Below are positions 1 to 27,366 of a stretch of DNA of 33,731 bases, in pieces (position 1 is the stretch's first letter; each line of letters starts with the position of its first letter). The position numbers and the translations under genes are program-made. Under the pieces are notes generated by a model that was not told the origin of the DNA, did no database searches, and saw only the letters and a list, made by a program, of their open reading frames with translations. The stretch is from Candidatus Woesearchaeota archaeon (GTDB lineage: Archaea; Nanobdellota; Nanobdellia; Pacearchaeales; GW2011-AR1): positions 1 through 33,731 of the forward strand of contig CAZWEB010000003.1 in the NCBI GenBank assembly GCA_964632115.1, given 5' to 3'.

Positions 1-114
1 ATTTTTTCAATCCTGACAATAGGCCTTTTACTAGATATATTCAACACCTGGGTAACAAATGCCAGCATATTAAAATGGTATGTTGAAAGAAAAACAAGTG
101 GAGGAGCAAGGTAG
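1..114 (+). CDS. secF: SecF-like protein-export membrane protein, C-terminal fragment (5' end outside window)
   Basis: Frame 1 is open from base 1 to TAG at 112-114. It encodes a hydrophobic tail, IFSILTIGLLLDIFNTWVTNASILKWYVERK, directly upstream of SecD. The secF-before-secD order is the usual archaeal arrangement. Confidence 0.5.
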   Translation: MFSILTIGLLLDIFNTWVTNASILKWYVERKTSGGAR

Positions 115-118
115 TAAA

Positions 119-1642: not shown

Positions 1643-1651
1643 ATTTTAAAG

Positions 1652-10842: not shown

Positions 10843-12381
10843 ATGATTAAGAAAAATGAAAACCTGACTAAACAGGCAGTTGAAGGAAGTTTCTGGGCGG
10901 GATTTGCTACTTTCTTGAATAGATTTGCCTCTTTATTTTTTAGTATTCTCTTTGCAAGACTTTTACTGCCTGAAAATTTTGGACTTTATAGCTTGACAAT
11001 GTCTATTGCATTTATCTTTATGACTTTTGCTGATTTGGGAATCAATGAAACCCTCATAAGATTTTTTTCATTATACAAGAATAAAGAGAAATCAACAGCA
11101 TATTTCCAATATATCTTTAAAATAAAAATTTTGCTGTCTTTTTTAGTCTCTTTAATTCTTTTTTTAGGCGCTTACCCACTTTCTTTTTTTATTTTTAAAA
11201 AACCAGAATTATTCTATCCCCTAATCGTAGCTTCAATATTCATATTATCCTCGCTATTTGTTTATTTTTTCTCATCGTTTTTTTATGCTATTAAAAAAAC
11301 CAAATATATTGGAATAAATGAAATATTTTTTCAATTAGTAAGAATTATTTTAATCATTTTTGTTTTTATTTTAATTTCCTCTGAATACCATGTTATTGCA
11401 ATAATTATTGCTTCAATTTTAACTAATCTATTTGTTTTATTATTGCTACTCTCTTGGTTGAAAAAACTTGCTCCGGGAATATTTAAAAAATCAAATCAAG
11501 TAATTGACAAAAAATCCCTTCTCAAATTTTTAGGTTATGCTACCATTGCTCAAATTTCTGGAATTTTTTTCAGTTATATTGATACTTTAATGCTTGGATT
11601 TTTTGTATCTTTTAGTTATCTTGGATATTATCGCATAGCTTTTAGCTTGGTTTTTGGAGTAATAGGGCTTTTTACTTATCTTAGCGTGGTTTTAATGCCT
11701 TTTTTTACCCGTTTGGAAAACAAGAGATTAAAAAGAGCCTTTAATAAATCAGTTAGATTTATTCTTATCTTTTCAATCCCTTCTGCATTTGGAATACTCG
11801 CTCTTGGAAGGTATTTCATAAGATTGCTCTATGGATATGAATATCTTCAGGCGCAATATCCATTTTATGTATTATCTTTTTTATTAATTCTCTGGATTCC
11901 AACAACTTTATTAATGACTTTATTTTTCTCGAAAGGAAAAATAAAAGAAATCCTTAAAATTAAAGTTTTTGCCTTAGTTTTAAATGTACTCCTGAATTTT
12001 GTTTTAATCTATTCTTTGATGTCCATTTCAGAGCTATGGGCTGTAGTCGGAGCCTCAATTGCAACACTCTTATCTTGGGTTTTTATATTTGTCAGCATGA
12101 TTATTATTTCAAGAAAAAAATTAAACATATCCTTAGAAAAAATCATTTTTGTAAAACCAATTATCTCAGGAATAATTATGTTTTTATCATTATACTTCTT
12201 AAATAGATTTCTAATTAGGGATATGACTCTTGTTTTAGGAGTATTGGAGATAATAGTCGGAGCATTAATCTATCTGATTTTAATGTATTTGATTAAAGGA
12301 ATTACGAGGGAGGATATGGAAACCCTAAAGAAACTTCCAGTATTTACTAAAATTCAGAGATTTAAAGAACTTAAATCCTAA
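10843..12381 (+). CDS. Wzx/MOP-superfamily oligosaccharide (polysaccharide) flippase
   Basis: The protein has 512 aa and about 12-14 TM helices. The N-terminus is typical of polysaccharide-biosynthesis flippases (GSFWAGFATFLNRFASLFFSILFARLL). It lies in a glycan cluster. Confidence 0.75.
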   Translation: MIKKNENLTKQAVEGSFWAGFATFLNRFASLFFSILFARLLLPENFGLYSLTMSIAFIFMTFADLGINETLIRFFSLYKNKEKSTAYFQYIFKIKILLSFLVSLILFLGAYPLSFFIFKKPELFYPLIVASIFILSSLFVYFFSSFFYAIKKTKYIGINEIFFQLVRIILIIFVFILISSEYHVIAIIIASILTNLFVLLLLLSWLKKLAPGIFKKSNQVIDKKSLLKFLGYATIAQISGIFFSYIDTLMLGFFVSFSYLGYYRIAFSLVFGVIGLFTYLSVVLMPFFTRLENKRLKRAFNKSVRFILIFSIPSAFGILALGRYFIRLLYGYEYLQAQYPFYVLSFLLILWIPTTLLMTLFFSKGKIKEILKIKVFALVLNVLLNFVLIYSLMSISELWAVVGASIATLLSWVFIFVSMIIISRKKLNISLEKIIFVKPIISGIIMFLSLYFLNRFLIRDMTLVLGVLEIIVGALIYLILMYLIKGITREDMETLKKLPVFTKIQRFKELKS

Positions 12382-13807
12382 AAACCCTTTTTATAAACTG
12401 CTTGCGCAAATTATATGCTTTTTTCAAAAATAAGGGGCTCAAAAGAAGAGGAACATGCCTTAATCTTAATGAGAGAAGATTAATTAAAAAGTTGCTTTTA
12501 TTAGTACTAAGTTGAAGAGATTTTATATCTCCATATATTTTTTTAAATTCTTTTTTTGAAATATCTCTTGACAGTAGGATATTTGCATCAAAATCAACTA
12601 AATCTTTTTCCTTTCGGTTGTAGTAGTCCTTATCAATTATCTTATTTTCAATTGCATAATTCCATATTGCTGTCCCTGGAAATGCAATTGTCTGGTAAAC
12701 ACTGAAATTTCTCAATGAGTTGTTTTTAATAAAATCATAAGTCTCTTTCATATCTTTGGCTGTTTCATAAGGAGAACCCACCATGAAAAAACCACCCACA
12801 TCAAATCCATATTTTCTTGCAATATCTAATGCTTTTTTATTATCTTTAACACTTATGATTCCACCCTTGAGATAATTTAAAACTTTCTGGCTTCCTGTTT
12901 CAAATCCAAATGTAATTGAAACAACATTTAATTTTTTTAATAATTGAGCATGTTCTTCATCAAAAACATCTGCCCTGCCGTATACATAGAATTTGATTTT
13001 TCCAAGAAGATTTCTTTGTTTGAGAAGTTTTGTTATTTCCCTGAGCCTCTCTTTATTAATTGGAAATAAATCATCATAAATTATTATGCTTCTGTATTTG
13101 TACTTTTTGTATAGAGTTTCAATTTCATTAGCAACTCTTTTAGCAGAAAAAAATCTTATTCTTCTGCCCCAAAAAGCACTTGAAGAGCAAAACTTGCAGT
13201 TATATGGACACCCTCTGGATGTTATCATAGAACCAGAAGGTTCAAAGCCATCTTTTGAAAGAAAACTTGGAAATCTATAATATTTCATATTTAACAAATC
13301 CCGTGCAGGCATTGGAATTTCATCAAGATTATCTATGCATTCTCCAGAACCAGTGCAAATCGATTCCTTATTCTCTCTGAAGATTATGCCTTTTATTTTT
13401 TTCAACTCTTTTGTTTTTATGCCTTTATTTTGTTTAATGCTCTCCAGAACTCTTGAAAAAGGAATTTCACCCTCTCCAGTTACTGCGATATCAAATACAG
13501 AATCGTTAAATGACTCAGGAGATGTTGTTACATGAACCCCTCCAATAATAAGTGTAGAATCAGGAGAGATTTTTTTTAATTTTTTTGCAATTTCCTTGAC
13601 AATATAGTAATTTGAACTTACTGCTGTCAGCCCAATAACCTCTGGTTTCAGCTCTTTTATTTTTTTTATAGTATCTGAATAGCTTAGTTGGTCAAATATT
13701 CTTACATTCCAGTCTGTTTTTTTCTTGATATAAGCAGCAAGATATGCTAGCCCTATTGGGGGATCAGCATCACTCATATAATCGGGATTAATTAATACTA
13801 AATTCAT
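12371..13807 (-). CDS. Cobalamin-binding (class B) radical SAM enzyme
   Basis: Motifs seen: MNLVLINPDY, IIGGVHVT, VTGEGEIP, SRGCPYNCKFC, FGFETGS. ATG 13807 is preferred over 13861 because it gives a typical N-terminus, avoids overlapping the upstream gene and has a TATA-like box 24.5 nt upstream. Start 13861 remains possible. Confidence 0.85.
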   Translation of the reverse strand: MNLVLINPDYMSDADPPIGLAYLAAYIKKKTDWNVRIFDQLSYSDTIKKIKELKPEVIGLTAVSSNYYIVKEIAKKLKKISPDSTLIIGGVHVTTSPESFNDSVFDIAVTGEGEIPFSRVLESIKQNKGIKTKELKKIKGIIFRENKESICTGSGECIDNLDEIPMPARDLLNMKYYRFPSFLSKDGFEPSGSMITSRGCPYNCKFCSSSAFWGRRIRFFSAKRVANEIETLYKKYKYRSIIIYDDLFPINKERLREITKLLKQRNLLGKIKFYVYGRADVFDEEHAQLLKKLNVVSITFGFETGSQKVLNYLKGGIISVKDNKKALDIARKYGFDVGGFFMVGSPYETAKDMKETYDFIKNNSLRNFSVYQTIAFPGTAIWNYAIENKIIDKDYYNRKEKDLVDFDANILLSRDISKKEFKKIYGDIKSLQLSTNKSNFLINLLSLRLRHVPLLLSPLFLKKAYNLRKQFIKRVFRI

Positions 13808-13827
13808 ATAAGTCTTTAAAATTAGAG

Positions 13828-13835
13828 ATTTATAA
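13828..13835 (-). promoter_or_regulatory. Candidate internal TATA box for the class B radical SAM gene starting at 13807
   Basis: The minus strand reads CCTTATAAATC. The box is centred 24.5 nt upstream of ATG 13807. Confidence 0.35.
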
Positions 13836-13847
13836 GGATTGTTAAGA

Positions 13848-14603
13848 TTAAGTAGATACATTCCCTATCTTATTATAAATAATTAGAAAATTTCTGACAA
13901 AAGCTATGAAACTAACAATTGTCATTAATATAAGATAATATCCAGGAACATTAAAAACAATGGCAAAAAACAGCAATGAAAAAGGATTAGCTGGCCTGAG
14001 CATCTCAATACAATAAGATTTCATTTTTTGAATAAAACTTTTCTTTGAGCTTTTATATCCTTTGATTCTGTATTCACCTGTTACTTGTTTTAATAAATCC
14101 AATCTTTTCTTTTCCTCTAAAGCCTCATAAAGTTTAAGCTTATTTAAATTATCAAAAATCAAAAAAAGACCTGAGACAATTCCCAAATAAAGATATATTA
14201 TGCTTCCTGAAACTCTATAAACCCCAACCCCTAATGCTAAAACTAAAAGTCCGCGGTTAACAGAGGAAAAAAGATTATCGAGATAAGGCCCTCCTAATGT
14301 TGTTTTTCCTGTCGCTCTTGCTATTTCTCCATCAAGATAATCTAGGAAAATAGCAAAATGATAAATTAAAATCCCCAATAATAAATACCAGTAACTTCCA
14401 ATAGTCATAATTAAAATACCAATTAATCCAATAATTCCCCACGCGAAGGTAATCTGGTTTGGAGTAATAAAAGGCAGAAATTTTGTAAAGAAATATGAAA
14501 CATAAGGAGAAACATATCCAAAGATTCTAATATTAACTGGGTGATCGTTCCAGACATCACAGTTTTTCTTTATGTCTTTTAATGTTATCTCTTTTTTCTT
14601 CAT
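13848..14603 (-). CDS. CDP-alcohol phosphatidyltransferase-family transferase (integral membrane)
   Basis: The family signature is DYLDGEIARATGKTTLGGPYLDNLFS, matching DxxDGxxARx8GxxxDxxx. By eye the final Asp is replaced by Ser. The protein is multi-TM. Confidence 0.8.
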   Translation of the reverse strand: MKKKEITLKDIKKNCDVWNDHPVNIRIFGYVSPYVSYFFTKFLPFITPNQITFAWGIIGLIGILIMTIGSYWYLLLGILIYHFAIFLDYLDGEIARATGKTTLGGPYLDNLFSSVNRGLLVLALGVGVYRVSGSIIYLYLGIVSGLFLIFDNLNKLKLYEALEEKKRLDLLKQVTGEYRIKGYKSSKKSFIQKMKSYCIEMLRPANPFSLLFFAIVFNVPGYYLILMTIVSFIAFVRNFLIIYNKIGNVST

Positions 14604-14643: not shown

Positions 14644-16131
14644 TTACATATATTTTTCTTTATATATCTGGCTAAGTTTCTCAAAAACATTGTTTCCTTG
14701 TTTATCAAATTTCTCTGCTTTTTCTATTTCTGTCCACATTTCTTTTGGAAATTTTACATATAATGGGAATGTTCTTTGCAAACCCTTAACTTGTTCTCTG
14801 CTTAATTGAGGCATATCTAAACCAGCATCAGAACGATAATCTCCTGCAATAAAATCTTCAGGTAAATATCCTTTTTCAACACAAAGTTCTCTTAATCTTG
14901 TTCCACGATATGCGCAAAAAATATTTACTATTACATTGTGTGCTTTTAATCTCCTGTTAAGGTTTATAGTATCAAAGACAAGCTCTCTTGTTTCAGTTGG
15001 AAACCCCATGATATTATTTGCACAAACCCTTATTCCAGCCTTTTTTGCTAAGTCAAATGCCTCAGTTACTTTTTCATTAGAGACATAGCGATTAAGAATG
15101 TCTTTTCTAAATTCATCATTTCCATGTTCAACCCCAATACTAATCCCTTCACAGCCAATTTCTTTTATCTTGAGAATTCTTTCTAAATTTACAGTTTCAG
15201 GTCTTGTTTCAATCCAAAAAGGAAGCTTAATATCTTTATATTGTTCAACAAATTTATCAAATCTTTCTCTGTTCATCTGTAGAAAATTCTCAGCAACAAG
15301 ATAGAGATATTGCAAGCCATATTTTTCTTTTTTCTCTTTTAATTCATTTATAAAATTTTCAATGCTCCTTTGCCGAGGGTATTTTCCAATATCTTTATAT
15401 TTTGCTTGCAATTCATCATTACAGCAAAAAGCACAATGAAAAGGGCACCCCCTGTCTAATTCTATTGGTCCACTAATCCATATTTTTCCACCCATTGGTT
15501 TAAAAAAACGCTCTTTTTCGTAAATGCTCCAATCTTGATCAGGAAGTTCATCTAAGTTTACAAGAGGTCTCAATGGATTTTTTATTATTTTCCCACTTTT
15601 TTTAATCCATAAATTTCTAACATCTGAATATTCTTTTCCAGAGCCTATTCTGTCTGCAAGTTCAACAATTGCTTCTTCTCCTTCACCTATGCAAATCATA
15701 TCAAGATTAGGATTTTTAATTATTTCTTTACCAGCCATTGTTGCATGAATGCCTCCAACTATTTTTGGGATTCTTAAATCCTTTATTTCTTTCAATAAAT
15801 CTAAGGTTATATGATATGTTGATTCAACTGCAGAAAAACCAATAATTTCTGGATTAAACTCCCTGATCGCTCTTTTAAAATCTTCTGCCATATTGGTATT
15901 TTTTTTATGTATCCCAAATTTTGAAAGATCAGTTGGTAATACTTGCAATGTTTCAACTCTTGCTTCATCTCCTGTTTTTTCACTTGTTTTATAGAATGTA
16001 GTGTCAAATAATTTTGTTTTATGTCCTGCTTTTTTTAGACAAGCAGAAAGAACCGATACACCAATAGGAATAAGATTATCCATGTAACTATTTATATAAG
16101 TTAGCAATACTTTAGTCATTTTAATAAACAT
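14644..16131 (-). CDS. Cobalamin-binding (class B) radical SAM enzyme (divergent subtype)
   Basis: Motifs seen: KVLLTYIN, IVGGIHAT, CIGEGEEA, DRGCPFHCAFC, IGVEHGN. An alternative ATG at 16119 (MTKVLL) would remove the 11-nt overlap with the upstream NTase gene. Confidence 0.85.
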   Translation of the reverse strand: MFIKMTKVLLTYINSYMDNLIPIGVSVLSACLKKAGHKTKLFDTTFYKTSEKTGDEARVETLQVLPTDLSKFGIHKKNTNMAEDFKRAIREFNPEIIGFSAVESTYHITLDLLKEIKDLRIPKIVGGIHATMAGKEIIKNPNLDMICIGEGEEAIVELADRIGSGKEYSDVRNLWIKKSGKIIKNPLRPLVNLDELPDQDWSIYEKERFFKPMGGKIWISGPIELDRGCPFHCAFCCNDELQAKYKDIGKYPRQRSIENFINELKEKKEKYGLQYLYLVAENFLQMNRERFDKFVEQYKDIKLPFWIETRPETVNLERILKIKEIGCEGISIGVEHGNDEFRKDILNRYVSNEKVTEAFDLAKKAGIRVCANNIMGFPTETRELVFDTINLNRRLKAHNVIVNIFCAYRGTRLRELCVEKGYLPEDFIAGDYRSDAGLDMPQLSREQVKGLQRTFPLYVKFPKEMWTEIEKAEKFDKQGNNVFEKLSQIYKEKYM

Positions 16132-16846
16132 ATCCCATGCTTTTTAAGGTTTTATTTATTCTAGGGATATCTTCTTTTTTATCTAGTTCTGACCAGGCTA
16201 GATTCATTCTGATTAATCCAAACCAAGGAACATTTTTGCTTGTAGAATAAGCGCAATCTTCATAATATTCAGCATTATTCTGTTTTTTAATATTTTTTTC
16301 ATGCAGACAAAACATTTCATCAACAAATCTTTTGGAAAATTTAGATATCCCTGTAAATTCAAAAATTGTTTTGTTGCTAGGAAGAGATTTTCCTAGATAT
16401 CTAACTTTTTTATTTTTATCTAAAACCACATAAACTTCATCTCCCCCACCACAGCATTCTGTTAAAACAACAGCATTTTCTTTATCATGCTTGATTAATT
16501 CAGGAATTATTTGGGAATCATAAACTATATCTCCATCCAAAACAATACAATCCTCTGGTTTCTGCAGTGCCGAATAGAAAGAATGCATGCTTCCAGAAGT
16601 TTCATAGGAATTATTCCATAAATAATTTATTCTTAATTTTTTAAACTTTTTTCCTAATTTCCTTTTTATTTTTTCTCCTCTGAAACCCAAAACTACAGAA
16701 ACCTCACTAAGTTCAGTTTTAGCTAAAGATTCAAGAGAATACTCGATAATACTTTTCCCCCCTATTTCAAATAGAGGTTTTGGTTTTCCATTTAAAACAT
16801 CTTCTAATCTTTTTCCCATTCCAGCTGCAAGAATCACTGCCCTCAT
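16121..16846 (-). CDS. Nucleotidyltransferase (LicC/PntC-like sugar-phosphate or phosphonate cytidylyltransferase)
   Basis: The N-terminal NTP-transferase signature is MRAVILAAGMGKRL. The protein is about 240 aa. It lies immediately downstream of the AEP transaminase gene. ATG 16846 is preferred over TTG 16852. Confidence 0.75.
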   Translation of the reverse strand: MRAVILAAGMGKRLEDVLNGKPKPLFEIGGKSIIEYSLESLAKTELSEVSVVLGFRGEKIKRKLGKKFKKLRINYLWNNSYETSGSMHSFYSALQKPEDCIVLDGDIVYDSQIIPELIKHDKENAVVLTECCGGGDEVYVVLDKNKKVRYLGKSLPSNKTIFEFTGISKFSKRFVDEMFCLHEKNIKKQNNAEYYEDCAYSTSKNVPWFGLIRMNLAWSELDKKEDIPRINKTLKSMGYVY

Positions 16847-16848
16847 TT

Positions 16849-17955
16849 TCAAATAGTTATTAAATCCATTTCCTTGAGAGTTATTTTCATAGATTCTAAA
16901 AAGTTATTAATATCTTTGGAGTCTATTGCTCCTATGTTAGCCAGCCTGAATGTTTTTTCCTGTATTTTTCCAGGATAAATTGTAAATCCTTTTTCTTTTA
17001 ATAAGTTATGTAATTTTTCAAATGAATAATTTGAATGCTCTGGTTCATAAAATGTTGTTAAAAGATGGCTCTGCGGAACTTCTGGTTTATACCGTTTAAA
17101 TCCAAAACTTTCCATTCCATTAACAAGAATCCTCCAGATTTCCCTATACCTTTGGTTCCTTGCCCCTATTCCTCCTTCTTCAAAAAATTCATCAATTGCT
17201 TTTCTTAATGCATAAATTGTCTGAACAGGGGGAGTAAATCTCATCTGATTATGTTCTTTTAAGTAAATATACTGGTTGTATAAATTTAAATAAAAACTCT
17301 TTCCATAATCTTTTGTTTTTTCTAATTCTTCTTTTTTTGCTATAACAAAAGCAACCCCCGGCATTCCTTGTATGCATTTGTTGCTTGTTGAAACCATAAA
17401 ATCAATATTATTTCTTTTAATATCTAATGGTATTCCTGCAAAACTAGATACTGCATCAACAACAAAAACCTTTCTATATTTTTTTGAGATTTTTCCTATC
17501 TCTAAAATAGGATTTAAAATTCCAGTTGTTGTTTCATGATGAATTGCACTTACAACTTCAATTTCAGAATCTTCTCGCAATTTTTTTTCTAGTTTTTTTA
17601 AATCAGGGACATCCCCCCATTCTTCTTTCTGCTCAGAATAAGAAATCCCATAGGTTTTTGCTATATTGACTATTCTCTCCCCATAAGCGCCATTATTAAC
17701 AACTAATAATTTTTTTTGTGTAGGAACAACAGAACTTATCACTGCTTCAATTCCTGCAGTTCCGCTTCCCCCAAATAACACGCAATCATAATTCTCATTT
17801 CCATTTACAATTTTTATTAGGTCTTTGGAAATAGAATCCATCAATTCTCCAAACTCTTTTTCTCTGGGGCATATATCTGGAACTACTTGGGCCATTTTTA
17901 CAGAATCTGTGGTAGTTGCAGGACCCGGATTCAACAAAATTTCCCTTTTTATCAT
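16849..17955 (-). CDS. phnW: 2-aminoethylphosphonate:pyruvate aminotransferase (class V aminotransferase)
   Basis: The N-terminus LLNPGPATTTDSV and the PLP-lysine segment STSNKCIQGMPG are both typical of AEP transaminases. The length is 368 aa. It is divergently paired with phosphonopyruvate decarboxylase. Confidence 0.8.
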   Translation of the reverse strand: MIKREILLNPGPATTTDSVKMAQVVPDICPREKEFGELMDSISKDLIKIVNGNENYDCVLFGGSGTAGIEAVISSVVPTQKKLLVVNNGAYGERIVNIAKTYGISYSEQKEEWGDVPDLKKLEKKLREDSEIEVVSAIHHETTTGILNPILEIGKISKKYRKVFVVDAVSSFAGIPLDIKRNNIDFMVSTSNKCIQGMPGVAFVIAKKEELEKTKDYGKSFYLNLYNQYIYLKEHNQMRFTPPVQTIYALRKAIDEFFEEGGIGARNQRYREIWRILVNGMESFGFKRYKPEVPQSHLLTTFYEPEHSNYSFEKLHNLLKEKGFTIYPGKIQEKTFRLANIGAIDSKDINNFLESMKITLKEMDLITI

Positions 17956-18007: not shown

Positions 18008-19123
18008 ATGATTAGATGTGAAGATTTAGCAGACATATTTAAAAAAAATAACTTAACTTTCTTTTCAGGTGTGCCTGACAGCACTTTTAAAGAATGGATG
18101 AAATTTTTAGATGATGGAAATGGCTTGACAAATATACTCGCTGTAAACGAATGTGAAGCCATAGCCATGGTATCAGGATATTATCTTGCAACCAAGAATA
18201 TAGGTGTTGTTTACATGCAAAACTCTGGTCTTGGAAAAACAGTAAATCCATTAACTTCCTTGTGTGATAAAGAGGTTTATTCAATTCCATTAATTCTAAT
18301 GATTGGATTAAGAGGAGAGCCCGGAGAAAAAGATGAGCCGCAACACAAGAAAATGGGCAGGATAACTCTTCCCCTTTTAGATGTTTTGGAAATTCCTTAT
18401 GCAATTTTGCCAAATACTCTTGAAGAAATCTCAAAAGTGATAACTGAGATGAAAAGAGCATCTGTAGAAAAAAACTCTCCTGTGGCAATTATAATAAAAA
18501 AAGGATTATTAGAAGAATACACTTCTAAAAAAACAACAAAAACATATTATGAGATGTCAAGAGAAGACGCTATTAAAACCATAACTAATAATATTCAAAA
18601 TAATGGGGTTATAATTTCAACAACAGGAAAAGCGTCAAGAGAATTATTTGAGTATAGGATACAAAGAAAAGAAAAACCAAAAGATTTTTATACTGTAGGG
18701 GGTATGGGTTGTTCTGCTTCAATTGCAAATGCAATAGCTATGCAAAAACCAAACCTTCCAGTATGGGTTTTTGATGGTGATGGGGCTGTTTTGATGCAGA
18801 TGGGAACATTAGCAACAATTGGAAAATATCGAACAGAAAATCTTTATCATATAGTTTTTGACAATAATTCCTATGATTCAACAGGAGGGCAACCCACAGC
18901 CTCTTCAACAGTTAATTTTGAAAAAATAGCATTAGCCTGCGGCTATAAAACCGCCAGAACAATTCAAAAAAAATCAGATTTAGAAGAGTATCTTAATATT
19001 ATGAAATCGCAAAAAGGCCCGCAGATGCTAATAATAAAAATAAAAAGAGGCGCAAGAAAGGATTTAGGAAGGCCAACCACAACCCCCATAGAAAATAAAA
19101 TTGAGTTTATGGATAATTTATAA
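18008..19123 (+). CDS. ppd: Phosphonopyruvate decarboxylase (ThDP-dependent)
   Basis: The characteristic N-terminus is NNLTFFSGVPDSTFKEW. The ThDP motif is GDGAVLMQMG...(26 aa)...NNSYDSTGGQ. The length of about 370 aa is typical of Ppd rather than the longer acetolactate-synthase-type enzymes. Confidence 0.85.
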   Translation: MIRCEDLADIFKKNNLTFFSGVPDSTFKEWMKFLDDGNGLTNILAVNECEAIAMVSGYYLATKNIGVVYMQNSGLGKTVNPLTSLCDKEVYSIPLILMIGLRGEPGEKDEPQHKKMGRITLPLLDVLEIPYAILPNTLEEISKVITEMKRASVEKNSPVAIIIKKGLLEEYTSKKTTKTYYEMSREDAIKTITNNIQNNGVIISTTGKASRELFEYRIQRKEKPKDFYTVGGMGCSASIANAIAMQKPNLPVWVFDGDGAVLMQMGTLATIGKYRTENLYHIVFDNNSYDSTGGQPTASSTVNFEKIALACGYKTARTIQKKSDLEEYLNIMKSQKGPQMLIIKIKRGARKDLGRPTTTPIENKIEFMDNL

Positions 19124-19139
19124 GGAGATTAAATAAAAA

Positions 19140-20621
19140 ATGAACCCCAAAAAATTCAAAAAAATTATGCTTGTAAATCCTGCAAATACCATGCCCAAGG
19201 ATAGTGTAAGAAGACTAACATCTCCATTGGGTTTAATGTATCTCGGGGCTGTTTTAAAACAAGACAATTATGATGTAAAAATTCTTGATTCTACTTGTGA
19301 GGGTTATTATAACACCCAGATTTCAGGAGAGCATATAACCTACGGGCTGTCAGATGATGAATTTAAAAAAAGAGTAAGAGAATATGAACCTGATCTTGTA
19401 GGGATAACCTCTATGTTTTCTGCTCAGCAGAAAAATTCAATACATCATTGTGATTTAGTAAAATCAGTTAATCCAGAAATTCCAATTGTTCTTGGAGGAA
19501 TACATCCTTCTATTTTAACAGAAGAATCTACAAAAAATTCTTCTGTTGATTTTGTAATCATCGGAGAAGGTGAATATAGAATTATAAAACTTCTAGACGC
19601 CCTAAACAAAAATCAAAAACCAGACTTTGATGGAATTGCTTATAAAAACAAGGACAAGATTATTCTAAATCCAATGATTTCAAGAATAGATAATTTAGAT
19701 TCATTGCCTTTGCCTGCCCGGGATTTAGTAGAGATGGAAAAATACATTCAAATAAGTGTTCCTTTTAGCCCGTTTCCAAGAAAAGAACGAGTTGAACAAA
19801 TTATGACAACAAGAGGTTGTCCGTTTAACTGCAATTTTTGTTCAACAGTCCAATACTGGGGGCATCATTTTAGAGCAAGATCTGTGGAAAACGTCTTAAA
19901 AGAGGTTGATGAATTAGTAAGCAAATACAAGATACAAGAGATACAATTTTCAGATGATAATCTAACTGTTAATAAAAAAAGAGCAAAAGATCTTTTTAGA
20001 AGACTCAAAGATTATAATCTCTCTTGGTGCACTCCAAATGGATTAATGGTTCAAACTCTTGATGAAGAAATGATAAAGTTAATGGCAGAATCAGGAGCAT
20101 ATCAATTCAGTTTTGCAATAGAATCTGGGAGTGATAGGGTTAGAGAAAAAATAATTAATAAAAAGGTTCCTCCAAAAAAAGACGTTAAAGAATTAGTTGA
20201 ATTGTGCCATGATTATAATATTCAGATCCATGGATTGTTTATAGTAGGATTTCCAGGAGAAAAGCGTCCAGAAATAGATGAAACATTGCAATATCCATTT
20301 GATGTTAATCTTGACAGTGCATCTTTTTTTATTGCAAATCCCATGCTGGGCTCAAGGCTTTATTTTGAATGCAAGGAAAAAGGATATATACATGAAGAAG
20401 AAATGACATGGAATGTTAAAAATGCTGAAATCAACATCCCTGCAGACTCTCCAGATTTTGTGATGCCTAATTCAGAACTAGAAGAATTAGTTAATCAAAA
20501 AGCAAGAGAATTTAATGAATATGCTAAAACTAAAAATCCGGGAGCATGGGATACTAAATTCAGCCAATTCCTCAAAAGGCATGGAGATAATGCAGATTTA
20601 ATCTTGGGAAGAGTGACCTAA
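19140..20621 (+). CDS. Cobalamin-binding (class B) radical SAM enzyme, Fom3-like (candidate phosphonate C-methyltransferase)
   Basis: Class B motifs are VLGGIHPS, IIGEGEYR and TRGCPFNCNFC. Other segments match my recollection of Fom3: KIMLVNPA, PLGLMYLGAVLKQDNYDVKILD, EGYYN, YGLSDDE, LMAESGAYQFSFAIESGS, SASFFIANP. An SD-like AGGAG lies at 19123-19127. Confidence 0.8.
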   Translation: MNPKKFKKIMLVNPANTMPKDSVRRLTSPLGLMYLGAVLKQDNYDVKILDSTCEGYYNTQISGEHITYGLSDDEFKKRVREYEPDLVGITSMFSAQQKNSIHHCDLVKSVNPEIPIVLGGIHPSILTEESTKNSSVDFVIIGEGEYRIIKLLDALNKNQKPDFDGIAYKNKDKIILNPMISRIDNLDSLPLPARDLVEMEKYIQISVPFSPFPRKERVEQIMTTRGCPFNCNFCSTVQYWGHHFRARSVENVLKEVDELVSKYKIQEIQFSDDNLTVNKKRAKDLFRRLKDYNLSWCTPNGLMVQTLDEEMIKLMAESGAYQFSFAIESGSDRVREKIINKKVPPKKDVKELVELCHDYNIQIHGLFIVGFPGEKRPEIDETLQYPFDVNLDSASFFIANPMLGSRLYFECKEKGYIHEEEMTWNVKNAEINIPADSPDFVMPNSELEELVNQKAREFNEYAKTKNPGAWDTKFSQFLKRHGDNADLILGRVT

Positions 20622-22348
20622 AGATTACCAAGAATATCCCTTACAAAGTTTAAGTCTTTTATATTGTGGATTTCCAGCCAGCCGCCGTTTGTTTCATGTA
20701 CTGCTACTTTGAAATCTCTGTTAACTAGTTCCTGAAACATATCTGTATCAACTGCTTTTCCAAAACTTTCTGCCCCGTGGAATTTCCCAGTATGATTTGA
20801 TTTTAAGTCTTCATATACTTTGATTAGATTTTCAGCACCTTGTTTTGAAAATTTTGCCAAGCCAATGAACTCATGAGTCATTAATTCTTTTGGGATGCTT
20901 CTGCCAATTAAAACAACTTCATCATTAGAAGGCCTTAATCTTTGATATTGGATTTGTTTTCCTTTTTTTGTTATAACTCCATCAAGTTTCTTATCTATCT
21001 CATGTTTATGATAAAGATAAGAATTATCAACAACAATTACAATATCTTCTTTTCTTTCAAGAAGCTCATTTATCAATCTTTTGTCCAAAAGAATATCTGA
21101 ATTAATATAAATAAATCCTTTTTTCATTTTTTCTTTAGCCTGCATAAGACTATGAATCATCCCCAAAGAAGAGTATTCTGGATTATCAAAATAATTAATA
21201 TCTGAAATATTAAATTTTTCTTTCTGCCACCCAATTATGGCATTGATATTATTCAATCCCAGGTCTTTGAATATCTGAATTTGATGTTCAAGTAATGTTC
21301 TCCCATTTATATTAATTAAAGCTCTTGGAATATTTCCCATTGCTTGTTTGAATTCCTCATTTTCTTCTCCAGCAGCAGGAATAATCACAGAAGGAGTTTT
21401 TGAAAGCAATTCATCTTTTTCTTTTATATCTAAGAAGCCAACTTTATTAAAAATTTCTTTTACAGAAATAATATGTGGCTCTGCTTCTAATGCTCTTTCA
21501 TTCTCAAGAATTATGCTTCCAACATTATGCATTGCTTTGTATGCTGCGCGCAGCATATGATTTGCATAGATTACAATATTAAATCCATGTTCTTCTAATT
21601 CAGACTCTCTTACTGAACTATATGTTGTTGGTACGCATACTAAAGGTTTTCTTATGCCTATCTCTTTGCATAATTGAGAATATTCTTTTGCAAATTTAAT
21701 CACTTCTTCAGGGCTAGTAGACTTTGAATGAATCATTATTCCATCTGCGCCACTTTCCAAGTATTTTCTTGCGCGCAGCAAGGCATCATTAATCTCTTTT
21801 CCTGCAATTAAACTTTCTATCCTTGCTATAATCATAAAATCATCAGATCTTTGTATTTTCTTTCCTGCTTCAATTTTTTCAGCAAAACGCTCTGGTTCTT
21901 CTAAATGCTGAATTGTTCCTGATTCAAGGCTATTTCTTTTTGGAAATACCTTATCTTCTATTATAACTGCAGAAACACCCATTCTTTCTAATTTTGGAAC
22001 TAAATATTCAAAATGATGTATGTCTCCTCCTGTATCACCATCAATAATCAATGGCTTGTTAGTAACTTCTAAAATTTCAGATACTGTTCTTAATCTAGAA
22101 TCAAACCCAATAATCTCTATATCTGGATGTCCTTTTGAAGCAGAATCAGTTAAACTGCTTTCCCAGAAAAAATCAAATTCATTGATTTTTTTAATTCCAT
22201 TGTTATCTATCTCTGCACTTAAATCATTTGCAATCAAGGCGCTTATTGCACTATGAACTTCTATTCCCCTTACCAGTTTTTTAATCTCCAACGCTCTTTT
22301 GAGTTTTTTTCGCCTCTCTTCAGGAGATATTAAATATCTCAATGTCAT
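20618..22348 (-). CDS. pepM: Phosphoenolpyruvate mutase fused to a C-terminal nucleotidyltransferase domain
   Basis: The N-terminal half has isocitrate-lyase/PEP-mutase superfamily motifs (DGDTGG) and the PepM-discriminating signature IIEDKVFPKRNS (EDKxxxxxNS). The C-terminal half has an NTP-transferase start (VIIPAAGE...PRALININGRTLLEHQI). ATG 22348 is preferred over TTG 22360 because a TATA-like box is centred 25.5 nt upstream of it. Confidence 0.75.
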   Translation of the reverse strand: MTLRYLISPEERRKKLKRALEIKKLVRGIEVHSAISALIANDLSAEIDNNGIKKINEFDFFWESSLTDSASKGHPDIEIIGFDSRLRTVSEILEVTNKPLIIDGDTGGDIHHFEYLVPKLERMGVSAVIIEDKVFPKRNSLESGTIQHLEEPERFAEKIEAGKKIQRSDDFMIIARIESLIAGKEINDALLRARKYLESGADGIMIHSKSTSPEEVIKFAKEYSQLCKEIGIRKPLVCVPTTYSSVRESELEEHGFNIVIYANHMLRAAYKAMHNVGSIILENERALEAEPHIISVKEIFNKVGFLDIKEKDELLSKTPSVIIPAAGEENEEFKQAMGNIPRALININGRTLLEHQIQIFKDLGLNNINAIIGWQKEKFNISDINYFDNPEYSSLGMIHSLMQAKEKMKKGFIYINSDILLDKRLINELLERKEDIVIVVDNSYLYHKHEIDKKLDGVITKKGKQIQYQRLRPSNDEVVLIGRSIPKELMTHEFIGLAKFSKQGAENLIKVYEDLKSNHTGKFHGAESFGKAVDTDMFQELVNRDFKVAVHETNGGWLEIHNIKDLNFVRDILGNL

Positions 22349-22369
22349 GAGTAAGAACAATATACCATA

Positions 22370-22488: not shown

Positions 22489-24003
22489 ATGAAGATAAAA
22501 TCCATGAAATCCTCTGATTTAAGAGATATAAGGAAAATTTCTAATGATAAAAGAAAAAAAGTTCTGCTGATTAATTGCAGAAGAAAAGGATATCTTCCAG
22601 CCCTGATGCCCCACATAGGACTTGGAATCTTGGCGGGAATTTTAATAAGAAGAGGGCACGAAGTCCTGGTTATTGATTATCTGCTTACTAATAATGTTCC
22701 CCCTATTGAAATGTTTTTAAAAAAATTTAATCCGGATGTAGTTGGAATTACTTCATATACTTGGAATATATTTGAAGTAAAAAAAACAATTGATGAGATA
22801 AGAAATTTTTCATCCTCTTTGCCAGTGATTATAGGCGGTCCACACACATCTATGTTTACAGATGATTTCAAACAAGACAAAAGAATTGATTATCTTGTTT
22901 TAGGAGATGGAGAACTGCTTATAATTGATTTGATTGAAAAAGCTAAAAGACAAAAAAAACCAGAAATACTATTCTCTAAAGAACTTGCAAAACTAGATGA
23001 TATTCCTTTTCCAAATTACCAGTGTTTTTACAAATGGGAAACAGTTCTTAGTTATCCCCTTTATACCTCCAGAGGGTGCCCACATAATTGCAATTATTGT
23101 TCTGTTTGGATCTTATGCAACAGGGTCTGGAGAACAAGAAGTTCTGAAAAATGCATAGAAGAACTTAGGCTTGCAAAAAAAATTTTCAAAAAAGACCTGC
23201 ATGTTTTTGTCGTAGATGACAGTCCGGCAATAGACAAAAAAAGATTTGCTGATTTTCTAAGATTATATATTAAAAGCAGATTAAGAATGAGACTCGAAGT
23301 CTATAATATGAGGGCTGATAATATTACAGAAGAAATACTCTCTTTGCTTAAAAAAACAGGCACTAAACATTTTACGGTGGCAGTAGAACACACAGATCCA
23401 GAAGTCTGTCAGTTGATGGACAAGCATGAAACTATTGAACAAATTGAAAATGCAATAAACCTGGTTAAAAAACAGGGATTTTTACTGACTCTTTTTTTTG
23501 TTATTGGTTTGCCAAAAGACAGTTTTGAAAAAACAAAAAAATTAATTAAATTTGCCAGAAAATTCAAGCCTTATGCTATCAATTGGAATATTTTTCAGTA
23601 TCTTGGCCCAAATAGGGCTGTAGAATGGTTCAAGGAGAATGGGAAAGTCGACGCAATTAATTACTCTCAGCCCTCTTTTAAAAAAGAAATTTTTTATCCA
23701 GAAGGAAAGCCTTTTGCAGAATATTCTGGCTTTACAAAACATGAGATAGAAAAAGCATATTTTATGGCAATCTTGAGGACAATATCTCCAAGTCTTAGGC
23801 TCAGAGATGCAGTAAGAATATTCAAAACAATCTCAAAATATAATCTCCAGGCAGATTTTTTTTATTGGCTTCCGAGAGGATTTTTAAAATCCCTAAGGAC
23901 CAAGTTTTATCTTTTTCAGTCTGCAGTAAATACTGTAAGAAAAGAAGGTATTATTAAAACTTTAAGAAAAATTATATACCTAAAGAAATTAGGAAGACTT
24001 TGA
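22489..24003 (+). CDS. Cobalamin-binding (class B) radical SAM enzyme
   Basis: Motifs seen: KVLLINCR, IIGGPHTS, VLGDGELL, SRGCPHNCNYC, VAVEHTD. Confidence 0.8.
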   Translation: MKIKSMKSSDLRDIRKISNDKRKKVLLINCRRKGYLPALMPHIGLGILAGILIRRGHEVLVIDYLLTNNVPPIEMFLKKFNPDVVGITSYTWNIFEVKKTIDEIRNFSSSLPVIIGGPHTSMFTDDFKQDKRIDYLVLGDGELLIIDLIEKAKRQKKPEILFSKELAKLDDIPFPNYQCFYKWETVLSYPLYTSRGCPHNCNYCSVWILCNRVWRTRSSEKCIEELRLAKKIFKKDLHVFVVDDSPAIDKKRFADFLRLYIKSRLRMRLEVYNMRADNITEEILSLLKKTGTKHFTVAVEHTDPEVCQLMDKHETIEQIENAINLVKKQGFLLTLFFVIGLPKDSFEKTKKLIKFARKFKPYAINWNIFQYLGPNRAVEWFKENGKVDAINYSQPSFKKEIFYPEGKPFAEYSGFTKHEIEKAYFMAILRTISPSLRLRDAVRIFKTISKYNLQADFFYWLPRGFLKSLRTKFYLFQSAVNTVRKEGIIKTLRKIIYLKKLGRL

Positions 24004-26202: not shown

Positions 26203-27366
26203 ATGGATAAATCTGAAAAAGATAAAATTTCTGTATTACCTACTGGAGACCAAAGATACAGGTTTAACTCTACAAAACTGCCCTGGCACATGGAAAGAGT
26301 AAGAAAAAGATTTGACAAAGGCGAACGAGTAGCACCAATACATATGGATGTTGGAATAACAAAAGCTTGCAATATCGAATGTGTTTTTTGTTTGGGATTT
26401 TATCAAAACATGACTGGAGAAATAATGCCTTATGATGCTACTGTAAATCTATTAAGAGATGCTCCTCAACTTGGAGTCAAATCAATGGGTATTATTGGAG
26501 ATGGTGAGCCCACATTAAATCCTGCTCTTTATGAAGCTATTAAATCTGGAAAAAAAGGAGGATTAGATATTGGGATAGCAACTAATGGTGTAGCTCTTAA
26601 TGAAAGTAAAATAGAAACTCTTGTAAAAAATTGTGTCTGGATAAGATTTAATTTGGGGGCAGTTGAAAGAGGGGCTTATAAAAGAGTTCACGGAAGAGAC
26701 TTTTGGCCAAGAGTTAAAGAAAATATTGAAAAAACTATCTCTACAAATGAAAAAGCAGAAAGACCATGCACCATTGGTTTGCAGATGGTTACAACTCCTC
26801 TAAGTCAAGATCAAATTATTCCTGAAGCAAAATGGGCAGTTGACATAGGCGCAGATTATTTTGAAATCAAACAAATGACTCAAGTTGATGATGCTCGCAT
26901 GATAAGTTTTCCTTTGGATTGGTATAAAAAACAAGATGTAATAGATGCCCTTAAGGAAGCAGAATCTCTCTCAACAGAAAGAACAATAATCATGCCTAAG
27001 TGGACAATGATGCAGTCAGGGGGAAAAAGAAATTATAATCATTGTCTGGATGTTTCACTTTTAATGCAAGTAAGTGGTAATGGGGAGTGCTATCCTTGCG
27101 CATACTTGTTTAATCATCCAGAATATCTGTATGGAGATTTAAAAAAACAATCTCTCGGAGAAATCTTAGAGGGCGATAGATACTGGAGAATTATAGAACA
27201 GATGGAAAAAAATTTTGATGTACATCAAGATTGTGAAGGATGTTGCAGACATGATAGAAATAATGAATTTCTTTATTATTATGTTCATGAAAAAGAGAGA
27301 TTCAAAGAATTCTGGAGATTAAATGTACAAGGTAAACCAACTCCAAGACATTTAAATTTTATTTAA
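26203..27366 (+). CDS. Radical SAM enzyme with C-terminal Cys-rich (SPASM/twitch-like) domain, paralogue A
   Basis: Motifs seen: GITKACNIECVFC (CxxxCxxC) and IGDGEPTLNP. The C-terminal cysteines are CLDV...YPC...DCEGCC. The protein aligns end to end with the 28328 and 30607 products, including the N-terminal KLxWHxxRV and the C-terminal HLNFI. Confidence 0.8.
   Translation: MDKSEKDKISVLPTGDQRYRFNSTKLPWHMERVRKRFDKGERVAPIHMDVGITKACNIECVFCLGFYQNMTGEIMPYDATVNLLRDAPQLGVKSMGIIGDGEPTLNPALYEAIKSGKKGGLDIGIATNGVALNESKIETLVKNCVWIRFNLGAVERGAYKRVHGRDFWPRVKENIEKTISTNEKAERPCTIGLQMVTTPLSQDQIIPEAKWAVDIGADYFEIKQMTQVDDARMISFPLDWYKKQDVIDALKEAESLSTERTIIMPKWTMMQSGGKRNYNHCLDVSLLMQVSGNGECYPCAYLFNHPEYLYGDLKKQSLGEILEGDRYWRIIEQMEKNFDVHQDCEGCCRHDRNNEFLYYYVHEKERFKEFWRLNVQGKPTPRHLNFI

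What the first reader, a model, noticed from the sequence alone, without database searches (positions are those of the whole stretch)
19140..20621. Fom3-like cobalamin radical SAM enzyme between ppd and pepM, paired with an aminotransferase instead of fosfomycin tailoring genes
Seen in sequence: this class B radical SAM ORF sits between ppd and pepM. An SD-like AGGAG lies 12 nt upstream of its ATG, which is 16 nt after the ppd stop. Its stop overlaps the convergent pepM stop. Beyond the generic B12/rSAM motifs, several segments match my memory of Streptomyces Fom3: PLGLMYLGAVLKQDNYDVKILD, EGYYN, YGLSDDE, LMAESGAYQFSFAIESGS, SASFFIANP.

Established knowledge: Fom3 C-methylates cytidylyl-2-hydroxyethylphosphonate, and the Fom1 cytidylyltransferase domain supplies that substrate.

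Inference: a cytidylyltransferase domain is fused to PepM here, but FomC and HppE are missing and PhnW is present. The methyl acceptor may therefore be a cytidylylated amino- or oxo-phosphonate. That would give a C-methylated AEP derivative (2-aminopropylphosphonate-type), not a fosfomycin intermediate.
Basis: partly seen in the sequence, partly recalled or inferred. Interest (0 to 1): 0.8.

Follow-up and report, generated by a model that had tools for sequence, protein, structure and literature searches.

The report
Fom3-type methylase in aminoethylphosphonate pathway
A vitamin-B12-dependent radical enzyme related to the fosfomycin methylase Fom3 sits in a gene cluster that makes 2-aminoethylphosphonate for the cell surface. 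It probably methylates the nucleotide-activated form of that compound, which would give a methylated phosphonate head group that has not been described.

Summary
ORF 19140-20621 is an intact class B (B12 + radical SAM) enzyme lying between ppd and a convergent pepM. It matches authentic Streptomyces wedmorensis Fom3 over its full length (37% identity, 311 bits). The other five class B paralogues in the window reach only 89-157 bits.

It is not a Fom3 orthologue. It belongs to a large uncharacterised family, with more than 120 clusters at 47-71% identity in uncultured archaea and bacteria.

The family shares five signature residues with Fom3, the SD_1168 family and intermediate clades. These residues are rare in relatives from non-phosphonate contexts.

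Gene context splits cleanly:
- Fom3 and its nearer relatives always sit with an Fe-alcohol dehydrogenase (the HEP route).
- This family sits with a PhnW-type AEP transaminase, a PntC-like cytidylyltransferase (fused to the enzyme in some genomes) and a CDP-alcohol or LicD phosphotransferase. It never sits with FomC, HppE or FomD.

Best reading: it C-methylates CMP-AEP to give a CMP-2-aminopropylphosphonate-type donor for a lipid or glycan. This is inferred, not shown. I found no published precedent. I class it as a new variant of a known kind, of moderate to high interest.

The parts
19140..20621 (+). Class B (cobalamin + radical SAM) enzyme, 493 aa. It belongs to an AEP-pathway-associated family within the Fom3/SD_1168 superclade and is the predicted CMP-AEP C-methyltransferase.
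   Evidence: Pfam PF02310 and PF04055. NF038361 352 bits, below the 575 cut-off. 37% identity and 311 bits to verified Fom3. The family forms a clade with bootstrap 100.
19209..19580 (+). B12-binding (Rossmann) domain, residues 24-147
   Evidence: PF02310, E 3.6e-20
19803..20291 (+). Radical SAM core, residues 222-384. It includes the CxxxCxxC motif at nt 19818-19841 (C227, C231, C234).
   Evidence: PF04055, E 2.6e-25. Sequence read directly. The cysteines are invariant in alignment A1.
19123..19127 (+). AGGAG, 12 nt upstream of the ATG. Function doubtful.
   Evidence: SD-like motifs are not enriched upstream of ORFs in this window.
18008..19123 (+). Phosphonopyruvate decarboxylase (Ppd). It is co-directional with the target and 16 nt upstream, so the two are probably co-transcribed.
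   Evidence: TIGR03297 451 bits, cut-off 312.5
20618..22360 (-). PEP mutase (residues ~20-305, nt 21446-22303, with the EDKxxxxxNS motif) fused to a C-terminal PF12804 LicC-like NTP-transferase domain (residues ~326-580, nt 20621-21385).
   Evidence: TIGR02320 349 bits, cut-off 319.55, and PF12804. PDB hits 5UNC/1M1B and LicC 1JYK. Motif read in the translation.
16849..17955 (-). 2-Aminoethylphosphonate transaminase (PhnW/AepZ type)
   Evidence: TIGR03301 443 bits, cut-off 360.8
16121..16852 (-). PntC-like nucleotidyltransferase, the predicted AEP cytidylyltransferase. In other genomes this domain is fused to the N-terminus of orthologues of the target.
   Evidence: Best PDB hit is 6PD1/6PD2, T. 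denticola PntC, E 2e-22 over the full length. Glu196 is conserved and Glu104 is replaced by Asp. The fusion protein P0037 has an N-terminus that matches PntC at E 7e-32.
14644..16131 (-). Second class B radical SAM enzyme, a conserved partner of the target in a subset of genomes. Role unknown; a further modification of the head group is possible.
   Evidence: Pfam. Orthologues at 50-69% identity lie next to the target orthologue in L013, L093 and L094.
13848..14603 (-). CDP-alcohol phosphotransferase family membrane protein. It is predicted to transfer the CMP-activated phosphonate onto a lipid or glycan alcohol.
   Evidence: PF01066, E 1e-9. Orthologues are present in L093 and L094. A CDP-OH_P_transf or LicD gene is present in 7 of 7 long orthologue loci.

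Best explanation
The ORF encodes a methylcobalamin-dependent radical SAM methyltransferase of the same mechanistic type as Fom3. It is recruited to the 2-aminoethylphosphonate (AEP) branch of phosphonate metabolism rather than the hydroxyethylphosphonate (HEP) branch.

Proposed pathway (gene identities are shown; the order of steps is inferred):
1. PepM converts PEP to phosphonopyruvate.
2. Ppd converts this to phosphonoacetaldehyde.
3. PhnW converts this to AEP.
4. The PntC-like transferase at 16121-16852, and/or the PepM-fused domain, converts AEP to CMP-AEP.
5. This enzyme methylates CMP-AEP.
6. The CDP-alcohol phosphotransferase (13848-14603) moves the methylated phosphonate from CMP onto a membrane lipid or surface glycan.

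Proposed catalysis, by analogy with Fom3: the reduced [4Fe-4S] cluster cleaves SAM to a 5'-deoxyadenosyl radical. The radical abstracts a hydrogen from C2 of the CMP-bound phosphonate. The substrate radical takes the methyl group from methylcobalamin. Cob(I)alamin is then re-methylated by a second SAM.

The predicted product is CMP-2-aminopropylphosphonate. The regiochemistry (C2 rather than C1) is assumed from Fom3. The adjacent second class B enzyme (14644-16131) may modify the head group further.
For: 1. Class B architecture and an intact cluster motif.

2. Specific affinity to the phosphonate-handling class B enzymes.
- 311 bits and 37% identity to verified Fom3, against 89-157 bits for the five window paralogues.
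- 295 bits to a bona fide SD_1168-family member, P0287.
- The family scores on average +33 bits better on a profile built from the Fom3-side clade than on one built from other relatives. The window paralogues score 50-100 bits worse on the Fom3-side profile.
- An NJ tree joins the family with the Fom3-containing clade at 70% bootstrap.

3. Signature residues. R25, P211, Q322, H364 and S393 are at least 90% conserved in this family and in the Fom3 clade, and 81-98% conserved in the intermediates. They are present in the SD_1168 representative. They occur in only 3-15% of other relatives and are absent from the window paralogues.

4. Context.
- Among 7 orthologue loci with 10 kb flanks, 7 have an NTP-transferase and a CDP-OH or LicD phosphotransferase, 6 have PhnW, and 5 have PepM plus Ppd. 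None has Fe-ADH, HppE or FomD.
- Two short loci also carry PhnW.
- All 10 loci of the Fom3 clade and intermediates carry an Fe-ADH.
- None of 74 other relatives has PepM, Ppd or PhnW.

5. Rosetta-stone fusions. P0027, P0037 and P0071 join a PntC-like domain to this enzyme. PntC itself was crystallised with CMP-AEP and prefers AEP (PMC6697681).

6. The Fom3 precedent. Fom3 uses a CMP-phosphonate substrate and abstracts hydrogen at C2 (PMC8158854).

7. A syntenic locus, L100 (SecD 58% identical), carries an HEP-type cassette with its own rSAM subtype at the same genomic position.
Against: - There is no biochemical evidence. The substrate, the regiochemistry and even methyl transfer itself are inferred.
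- Two orthologue loci (L011, L094) show no PepM within 10 kb, and L094 has no PhnW either.
- With denser sampling the backbone of the tree has bootstrap of about 1.
- About 75 clusters at 50% identity score above the Fom3-clade representative. The link to Fom3 therefore rests on signature residues, context and profile scores, not on a resolved phylogeny.
- The neighbouring class B enzyme (14644-16131) could be the AEP methylase instead.
- The context correlation comes from few independent lineages.
- 2-Aminopropylphosphonate was not found as a natural product in the literature I could search.
Confidence: 0.55

Rival explanations
1. It is a functional Fom3 equivalent. It would methylate CMP-2-hydroxyethylphosphonate to CMP-2-hydroxypropylphosphonate, and the HEP-forming reductase would be encoded elsewhere.
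For: Fom3 is the closest characterised homologue. The shared signature residues and nucleotidyltransferase partners fit. Fom3-clade members at 58-60% identity also occur in surface-decoration contexts without HppE (L097, L098).
Against: No Fe-ADH or FomC homologue is found in the window or in any of the orthologue loci, whereas all 10 loci of the Fom3 clade and intermediates have one. PhnW is present in 8 orthologue loci. Position 212 is Tyr in every Fe-ADH-associated sequence examined, but Phe in this family.
Confidence: 0.07
2. It is a P-methyltransferase of the PhpK/BcpD or SD_1168 type and would make a phosphinate (C-P-C).
For: The best NCBIfam hit is NF038361, named 'Sden_1168 family ... 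P-methyltransferase', at 352 bits.
Against: The score is far below the 575 cut-off, and Fom3, a C-methylase, hits the same model at 300 bits. PhpK model TIGR04479 gives 126 bits against a cut-off of 600. The window has no genes for making an H-phosphinate substrate. The physiological reaction of SD_1168 is itself unknown and is described as 'C- or P-methylation' (PMC9204698).
Confidence: 0.05
3. It methylates the aminoethylphosphonate moiety, but not as the CMP conjugate. The substrate would be free AEP, or AEP already attached to the lipid or glycan.
For: The cluster logic (PhnW, phosphotransferase) is equally compatible with this order of steps. The class B family includes enzymes that act on large substrates.
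Against: Fusions with a PntC-like cytidylyltransferase domain and immediate adjacency to it (L093, L094) argue for channelling of the nucleotide conjugate. Fom3 requires the CMP conjugate (PMC8158854). Residues shared with Fom3 and SD_1168 suggest a common recognition element.
Confidence: 0.13
4. The family acts on a non-phosphonate CDP-amino-alcohol head group, such as CDP-ethanolamine, and its link to PepM is only frequent co-location in surface-polysaccharide islands.
For: L094 has the four-gene set rSAM2, NTP-transferase, target orthologue and CDP-OH transferase, with no PepM, Ppd or PhnW within 10 kb. L011 lacks PepM within 10 kb.
Against: Five of 7 long loci have PepM plus Ppd and 6 of 7 have PhnW. 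None of 74 more distant relatives has any of the three. The nucleotidyltransferase partner resembles the AEP-specific PntC more than LicC.
Confidence: 0.08
5. It performs non-methylating class B chemistry on the phosphonate, such as a rearrangement, a cyclisation or BchE/HpnJ-like chemistry.
For: The secondary NCBIfam hits are HpnJ (173 bits) and BchE (165 bits). Class B enzymes include non-methylases (PMC9204698).
Against: Those hits are generic. All six paralogues in the window give them, often at higher scores. The nearest characterised relative is a methylase.
Confidence: 0.07

Closest known systems
Fom3 (Streptomyces wedmorensis, UniProt Q56184), the cytidylyl-2-hydroxyethylphosphonate C2-methyltransferase of fosfomycin biosynthesis
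   Same: Class B architecture. Full-length alignment at 37% identity. Shared signature residues R25, P211, Q322, H364 and S393. It is encoded with PepM, Ppd and a cytidylyltransferase, which implies a nucleotide-bound C2 phosphonate substrate.
   Different: It is a separate family, not an orthologue: Fom3 orthologues are at least 56% identical to Fom3. It is partnered with a PhnW transaminase instead of the FomC Fe-ADH. There is no FomD or HppE. The product is apparently passed to a CDP-alcohol or LicD phosphotransferase rather than hydrolysed and epoxidised. Position 212 is Phe rather than Tyr.
SD_1168 / NCBIfam NF038361 (Shewanella denitrificans class B enzyme; physiological substrate unknown)
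   Same: It is the best NCBIfam model hit (352 bits). The target is 35% identical (295 bits) to family member P0287. The same five signature residues are present.
   Different: The score is below the 575-bit cut-off. SD_1168 members carry an N-terminal extension of about 60 residues. Position 212 is Tyr. The one context recovered (L101, 6 kb) was uninformative.
Pnt (phosphonyl tailoring) pathway: Ppm-Ppd-AEPT-PntC plus LicD-like transferases (Rice et al. 2019, PMC6697681)
   Same: The same core is present: PepM fused to a PF12804 domain, Ppd, an AEP transaminase, a PntC-like gene (E 2e-22 to 6PD1), and a phosphotransferase in a glycan or lipid locus.
   Different: The described Pnt pathway has no radical SAM step; the paper does not mention one. 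Here one or two class B enzymes are inserted into the module.
PhpK/BcpD P-methyltransferases (phosphinothricin)
   Same: They are class B radical SAM enzymes acting in a PepM-derived pathway.
   Different: TIGR04479 gives only 126 bits against a cut-off of 600. Several window paralogues score as high or higher. There is no phosphinate pathway context.

Membership tests
Class B (cobalamin-dependent) radical SAM enzymes | N-terminal B12-binding Rossmann domain followed by a radical SAM core | tested here: met
   PF02310 at res 24-147 (72.5 bits, cut-off 32.1) and PF04055 at res 222-384 (90 bits, cut-off 29.5)
Class B (cobalamin-dependent) radical SAM enzymes | CxxxCxxC motif that binds the [4Fe-4S] cluster | tested here: met
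   C227-x3-C231-x2-C234, invariant in 26 family members
Class B (cobalamin-dependent) radical SAM enzymes | Binds cobalamin and transfers methyl by a radical route | not testable with these tools
   Requires reconstitution and an enzyme assay
Fom3 (CMP-HEP C-methyltransferase) orthologous group | Sequence falls inside the Fom3 clade | tested here: not met
   37% identity. The Fom3 clade is 56-89% identical to Fom3. The target family is a separate clade with 100% bootstrap.
Fom3 (CMP-HEP C-methyltransferase) orthologous group | Co-encoded with an HEP-forming Fe-alcohol dehydrogenase (FomC) | tested here: not met
   There is no FomC-like hit in the window or in any of the 11 family loci. All 10 Fom3-side loci have one.
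Fom3 (CMP-HEP C-methyltransferase) orthologous group | Downstream FomD hydrolase and HppE epoxidase | tested here: not met
   tblastn finds neither in the window or in family loci
Fom3 (CMP-HEP C-methyltransferase) orthologous group | Partner cytidylyltransferase that supplies a CMP-phosphonate | tested here: met
   A PntC-like gene and a PepM-fused PF12804 domain are present, and fusions exist in orthologues. The domain family differs from Fom1's PF01467.
NF038361 Sden_1168 family | Score at or above the curated cut-off (575 bits) | tested here: not met
   352 bits. A true member, P0287, scores 964 bits.
TIGR04479 PhpK family P-methyltransferases | Score at or above the curated cut-off (600 bits) | tested here: not met
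   126 bits
Pnt-type AEP surface-tailoring cluster (Rice et al. 2019) | Ppm with the EDKxxxxxNS motif, Ppd, AEP transaminase and a PntC-type cytidylyltransferase, clustered together | tested here: met
   TIGR02320 349 bits, TIGR03297 451 bits and TIGR03301 443 bits, all above their cut-offs. EDKVFPKRNS is present in the translation. PntC 6PD1 matches at E 2e-22.
Pnt-type AEP surface-tailoring cluster (Rice et al. 2019) | CMP-AEP is actually formed and transferred to a glycan or lipid | not testable with these tools
   Requires enzymology or 31P-NMR on cells

The most novel reading that the evidence does not exclude
The two conserved class B enzymes (19140-20621 and 14644-16131) would act in sequence on CMP-AEP. 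Together they would build a branched or extended aminoalkylphosphonate head group, for example 2-aminopropyl- and then 2-amino-2-methylpropyl- or 2-aminobutyl-phosphonate. A CDP-alcohol phosphotransferase would then install it on a membrane lipid or surface glycan of a DPANN-type archaeon. This would be a new class of natural phosphonate, the first phosphonate conjugate assigned to such archaea, and the first radical C-methylation alpha to an amine on a nucleotide-phosphonate.
Probability: 0.2. Interest if true: 0.8.

Novelty: new variant of a known kind. Interest (0 to 1): 0.62.

Why it matters
- Only one class B radical SAM enzyme, Fom3, has an established phosphonate substrate. PhpK's physiological substrate is still debated and SD_1168's is unknown. 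A large, widespread sister family tied to the AEP branch would extend Fom3-type chemistry from an antibiotic pathway to cell-surface tailoring.
- It predicts a phosphonate not yet reported from nature (C-methyl-AEP), which could be looked for in environmental 31P-NMR and lipidomics data.
- It gives enzymologists a second natural substrate pair (CMP-HEP versus CMP-AEP), with candidate discriminating residues such as Tyr versus Phe at position 212, for studying substrate recognition in this poorly understood enzyme class.
- It implies that small-genome uncultured archaea and bacteria depend on cobalamin for their surface chemistry.

Tried and rejected
- Viral contig scan with the family alignment: nothing closer than 31% identity.
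- SD_1168 primary paper (PMC4362910): not held.
- Genomic context of an SD_1168-family member: only a 6-kb contig with no informative neighbours.
- PDB: no Fom3 structure. The best sequence hit is 9CCB at 86 bits over the core only, so no residue-level structural inference was possible. I did not run structure prediction because the tools return no coordinates with which to place the signature residues.
- Larger NJ tree (325 sequences): it keeps the family next to the Fom3-containing clade, but backbone bootstrap is about 1. I therefore do not claim a resolved sister relationship and rely on signature residues, profile-score differences and context.
- The P-methyltransferase reading suggested by the NCBIfam name was rejected, because Fom3 hits the same model and neither reaches the cut-off.
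- The Shine-Dalgarno reading of AGGAG was rejected as unsupported.
- Literature searches for a C-methylated AEP, for 2-aminopropylphosphonate as a natural product, or for a radical SAM step in AEP tailoring found nothing relevant.
Full report
**Observation**

The ORF at 19140-20621 (+) is real and intact (493 aa, ATG to TAA).
- The ppd stop is at 19121-19123, and 16 nt separate it from the ATG.
- AGGAG lies at 19123-19127, 12 nt upstream of the ATG.
- The ORF's TAA (20619-20621) overlaps by 2 nt the stop of the convergent pepM ORF (20618-20620).
- Pfam finds a B12-binding domain (res 24-147) and a radical SAM core (res 222-384). The cluster motif is C227-x3-C231-x2-C234.
- The AGGAG is present, but SD-like motifs precede only 5 of 29 ORFs here. 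That is the background rate, so I give it no weight.

**Neighbours**

Curated models above their cut-offs identify three enzymes:
- Ppd: TIGR03297, 451 bits.
- PEP mutase: TIGR02320, 349 bits, with the EDKVFPKRNS motif.
- A PhnW/AepZ-type AEP transaminase: TIGR03301, 443 bits.

PepM carries a C-terminal PF12804 (LicC/MobA-like) nucleotidyltransferase domain. Fom1 instead has an N-terminal PF01467 domain. Rice et al. report that both fusion types are common in Ppm enzymes (PMC6697681).

A separate 243-aa nucleotidyltransferase (16121-16852) has T. denticola PntC as its best solved relative. PntC is the AEP cytidylyltransferase crystallised with CMP-AEP. The match is E 2e-22 over the full length. 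The amine-contacting Glu196 is conserved, and Glu104 is replaced by Asp.

Downstream on the same strand lie a second class B enzyme (14644-16131), a CDP-alcohol phosphotransferase (13848-14603) and a third class B enzyme.

The rest of the window is a surface-glycan island. It holds glycosyltransferases of families GT2, GT9 and PMT_2, a flippase, an RmlD-like reductase, a split transketolase, a NUDIX protein and four SPASM/twitch-type radical SAM genes. No Fe-ADH, HppE or FomD homologue is present.

**Is it Fom3-like?**

I recalled a Fom3 sequence from memory and then verified it. It is 100% identical to a gene in S. wedmorensis NRRL 3426 that sits beside FomA (624 bits), FomB (561 bits) and a Fom1-type CyTase-PepM.
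- Against this Fom3 the target gives 311 bits and 37% identity over the full length. The five paralogues give 89-157 bits. The target is closer to Fom3 than to any paralogue (161 bits or less).
- The best NCBIfam model is NF038361 (SD_1168 family) at 352 bits, below its 575 cut-off. Fom3 itself hits that model at 300 bits.
- A true member of that family, P0287 (964 bits), is 35% identical to the target.
- The PhpK model scores 126 bits against a cut-off of 600.

The target is therefore a member of neither named family, but it belongs to the same superclade as both.

**The family**

- More than 120 clusters at 90% identity are 47-71% identical to the target. Named sources include Nanoarchaeota, Promethearchaeia, Riflebacteria, Omnitrophota, Elusimicrobiota and Magnetococcales MAGs.
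- Three of these proteins (P0027, P0037, P0071) are fusions with an N-terminal nucleotidyltransferase domain. In P0037 that domain matches PntC at E 7e-32.
- In a search of representatives at 50% identity, the family collapses to a few representatives. The Fom3-clade representative ranks about 77th. Fom3 is the closest characterised relative, not the closest relative.

**Phylogeny and signatures**

- A 199-sequence NJ tree gives the family 100% bootstrap. It joins the family, with sisters L021, L024 and L036, to a clade at 70%. That clade holds Fom3, intermediates at 42-49% identity to Fom3, and L016.
- With 325 sequences the same neighbourhood is recovered, but backbone support collapses.
- Two independent tests support the grouping:
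  - Family members score on average +33 bits higher on a profile built from the Fom3-side clade than on one built from the other relatives. The window paralogues score 50-100 bits lower on the Fom3-side profile.
  - Five residues (R25, P211, Q322, H364, S393) are at least 90% conserved in this family and in the Fom3 clade, and 81-98% conserved in the intermediates. They are present in the SD_1168 representative. They occur in only 3-15% of other relatives and are absent from the paralogues.

**Context dichotomy**

| Group | Loci | PhnW-type transaminase | Fe-ADH (FomC-like) | Other |
|---|---|---|---|---|
| Target family, 10 kb flanks | window, L010, L011, L093-L096 (7) | 6 of 7 | 0 of 7 | NTP-transferase plus CDP-OH or LicD phosphotransferase in 7 of 7; PepM plus Ppd in 5 of 7; no HppE or FomD |
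| Target family, short loci | L012, L015 | both | none | - |
| Fom3 clade and intermediates | six Streptomyces loci, L097-L100 (10) | 1 of 10 (L097, 8 kb away) | 10 of 10 | - |
| More distant relatives | 74 loci, 33 with at least 8 kb of flank | none | - | no PepM, Ppd or PhnW in any |

Sources.

- The sister loci L021 and L024 carry PepM, Ppd and PhnW.
- L100 is syntenic with the window: SecD is 58% identical, the small downstream protein 38% and the flippase 41%. At that position it holds an HEP-type cassette with its own rSAM subtype.
- Position 212 is Tyr in every Fe-ADH-associated sequence examined. It is Phe in this family and Val in L021 and L024.

**Mechanism (inferred)**

Fom3 methylates C2 of CMP-HEP. 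A 5'-deoxyadenosyl radical abstracts the pro-R hydrogen, and methylcobalamin donates the methyl group (PMC8158854). PntC makes CMP-AEP (PMC6697681). The most economical reading of the data is that this family does the same reaction on CMP-AEP. The product would be a CMP-2-aminopropylphosphonate-type donor, which the CDP-alcohol or LicD phosphotransferase then uses. I give this 0.55.

Shown: gene identities, the family relationships as described, the fusions and the context statistics.
Inferred: the substrate, the regiochemistry, methyl transfer itself and the acceptor.

**Weak points**

- L011 and L094 lack PepM within 10 kb.
- The deep tree is unresolved.
- The context correlation rests on few independent lineages.
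- The conserved partner enzyme at 14644-16131 has orthologues at 50-69% identity beside the target orthologue in L013, L093 and L094. It might carry the proposed activity itself or add a second modification.

**Novelty**

- Two reviews of class B enzymes (2022 and 2026) list only Fom3, PhpK/BcpD and SD_1168 in phosphonate chemistry. SD_1168's substrate is unknown.
- The Pnt-pathway paper and the phosphonate branch-point inventory do not describe a radical SAM step on AEP.
- Searches for C-methyl-AEP or 2-aminopropylphosphonate as a natural product found nothing.

I class this as a new variant of a known kind: Fom3-type chemistry moved to the AEP surface-tailoring branch.

**Host**

The host is probably a DPANN-type archaeon. 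This is an inference from several observations:
- GC content is 30.8%.
- The closest named homologues are archaeal.
- The contig carrying P0004 (67% identity) has archaeal ribosomal proteins.
- The syntenic locus L100 encodes RNA_pol_N.

Noticed in passing
window 14644-16131 (-): A second class B radical SAM gene forms a conserved pair with the target. Orthologues at 50-69% identity lie directly beside the target orthologue in L013, L093 and L094, and a fragment is present in L095. It has no specific family hit; the best are BchE (124 bits) and HpnJ (113 bits).
   Followed up: partly
window 6355-7770, 9326-10696, 12371-13861, 22489-24003, 26203-27366, 28328-29404, 30607-31659, 32137-33030: The window holds ten radical SAM genes in 33.7 kb: six class B and four SPASM/twitch-like. 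It also has a split transketolase (29404-30605). Similar sets (SPASM rSAMs, transaldolase, transketolase) recur near target orthologues in L011, L095 and L096. This suggests a larger conserved sugar-modification module.
   Followed up: partly
L100 (ena ERZ27248937 k141_93772) compared with window 80-2080 and 10843-12381: L100 is a syntenic archaeal locus: SecD is 58% identical, the small protein 38% and the flippase 41%. At the same position it carries an HEP-type cassette: CDP-OH transferase, CTP_transf_like, rSAM P0174, CyTase-PepM, Ppd and Fe-ADH. This looks like cassette exchange between AEP and HEP variants.
   Followed up: partly
P0074 (797 aa homologue, 51-55% identity): An intein of about 306 residues with an HNH endonuclease (PF14890, PF13392) is inserted inside the CxxxCxxC motif. 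The N-extein ends at RGCPFR and the C-extein resumes at CVFCS, so the insertion lies just before the second cluster cysteine.
   Followed up: yes
L097 (Telmatospirillum MAG), L098, L099: Fom3-clade proteins at 47-60% identity to Fom3 occur outside actinomycetes. L097 and L098 lack HppE and sit next to CDP-OH or sulfatase-type transferases and glycan genes, so 2-hydroxypropylphosphonate may be a surface decoration there. L099 has CyTase-PepM, Ppd, Fe-ADH, a metallophosphoesterase and a cupin with 80 bits to HppE, which may be a fosfomycin-like cluster.
   Followed up: partly
L010 18948-20246 and L096 14304-15590, compared with window 20618-22360: Within the same rSAM family, the PepM partner carries either a C-terminal PF12804 domain (window, L093, L095) or an N-terminal Fom1-type PF01467 domain (L010, L096). 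The two nucleotidyltransferase folds appear to be interchangeable in this module.
   Followed up: no
window 16121-16852 (-): The PntC-like protein has Asp where Tde-PntC has the amine-contacting Glu104, as LicC does. The PntC-like domain fused to the rSAM in P0037 keeps Glu. This may reflect a roomier pocket. It was not tested.
   Followed up: no
window, upstream of all 29 ORFs: SD-like motifs are not enriched upstream of start codons: 5 of 29 ORFs against a background of 17.5%. Many gene pairs overlap or abut by a few nucleotides, which suggests SD-independent initiation in this organism.
   Followed up: yes
window 18087-18488 (-): A 133-aa TTG ORF lies antisense inside ppd. It is very probably spurious, because it is fully contained in a gene with a 451-bit family match.
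   Followed up: no
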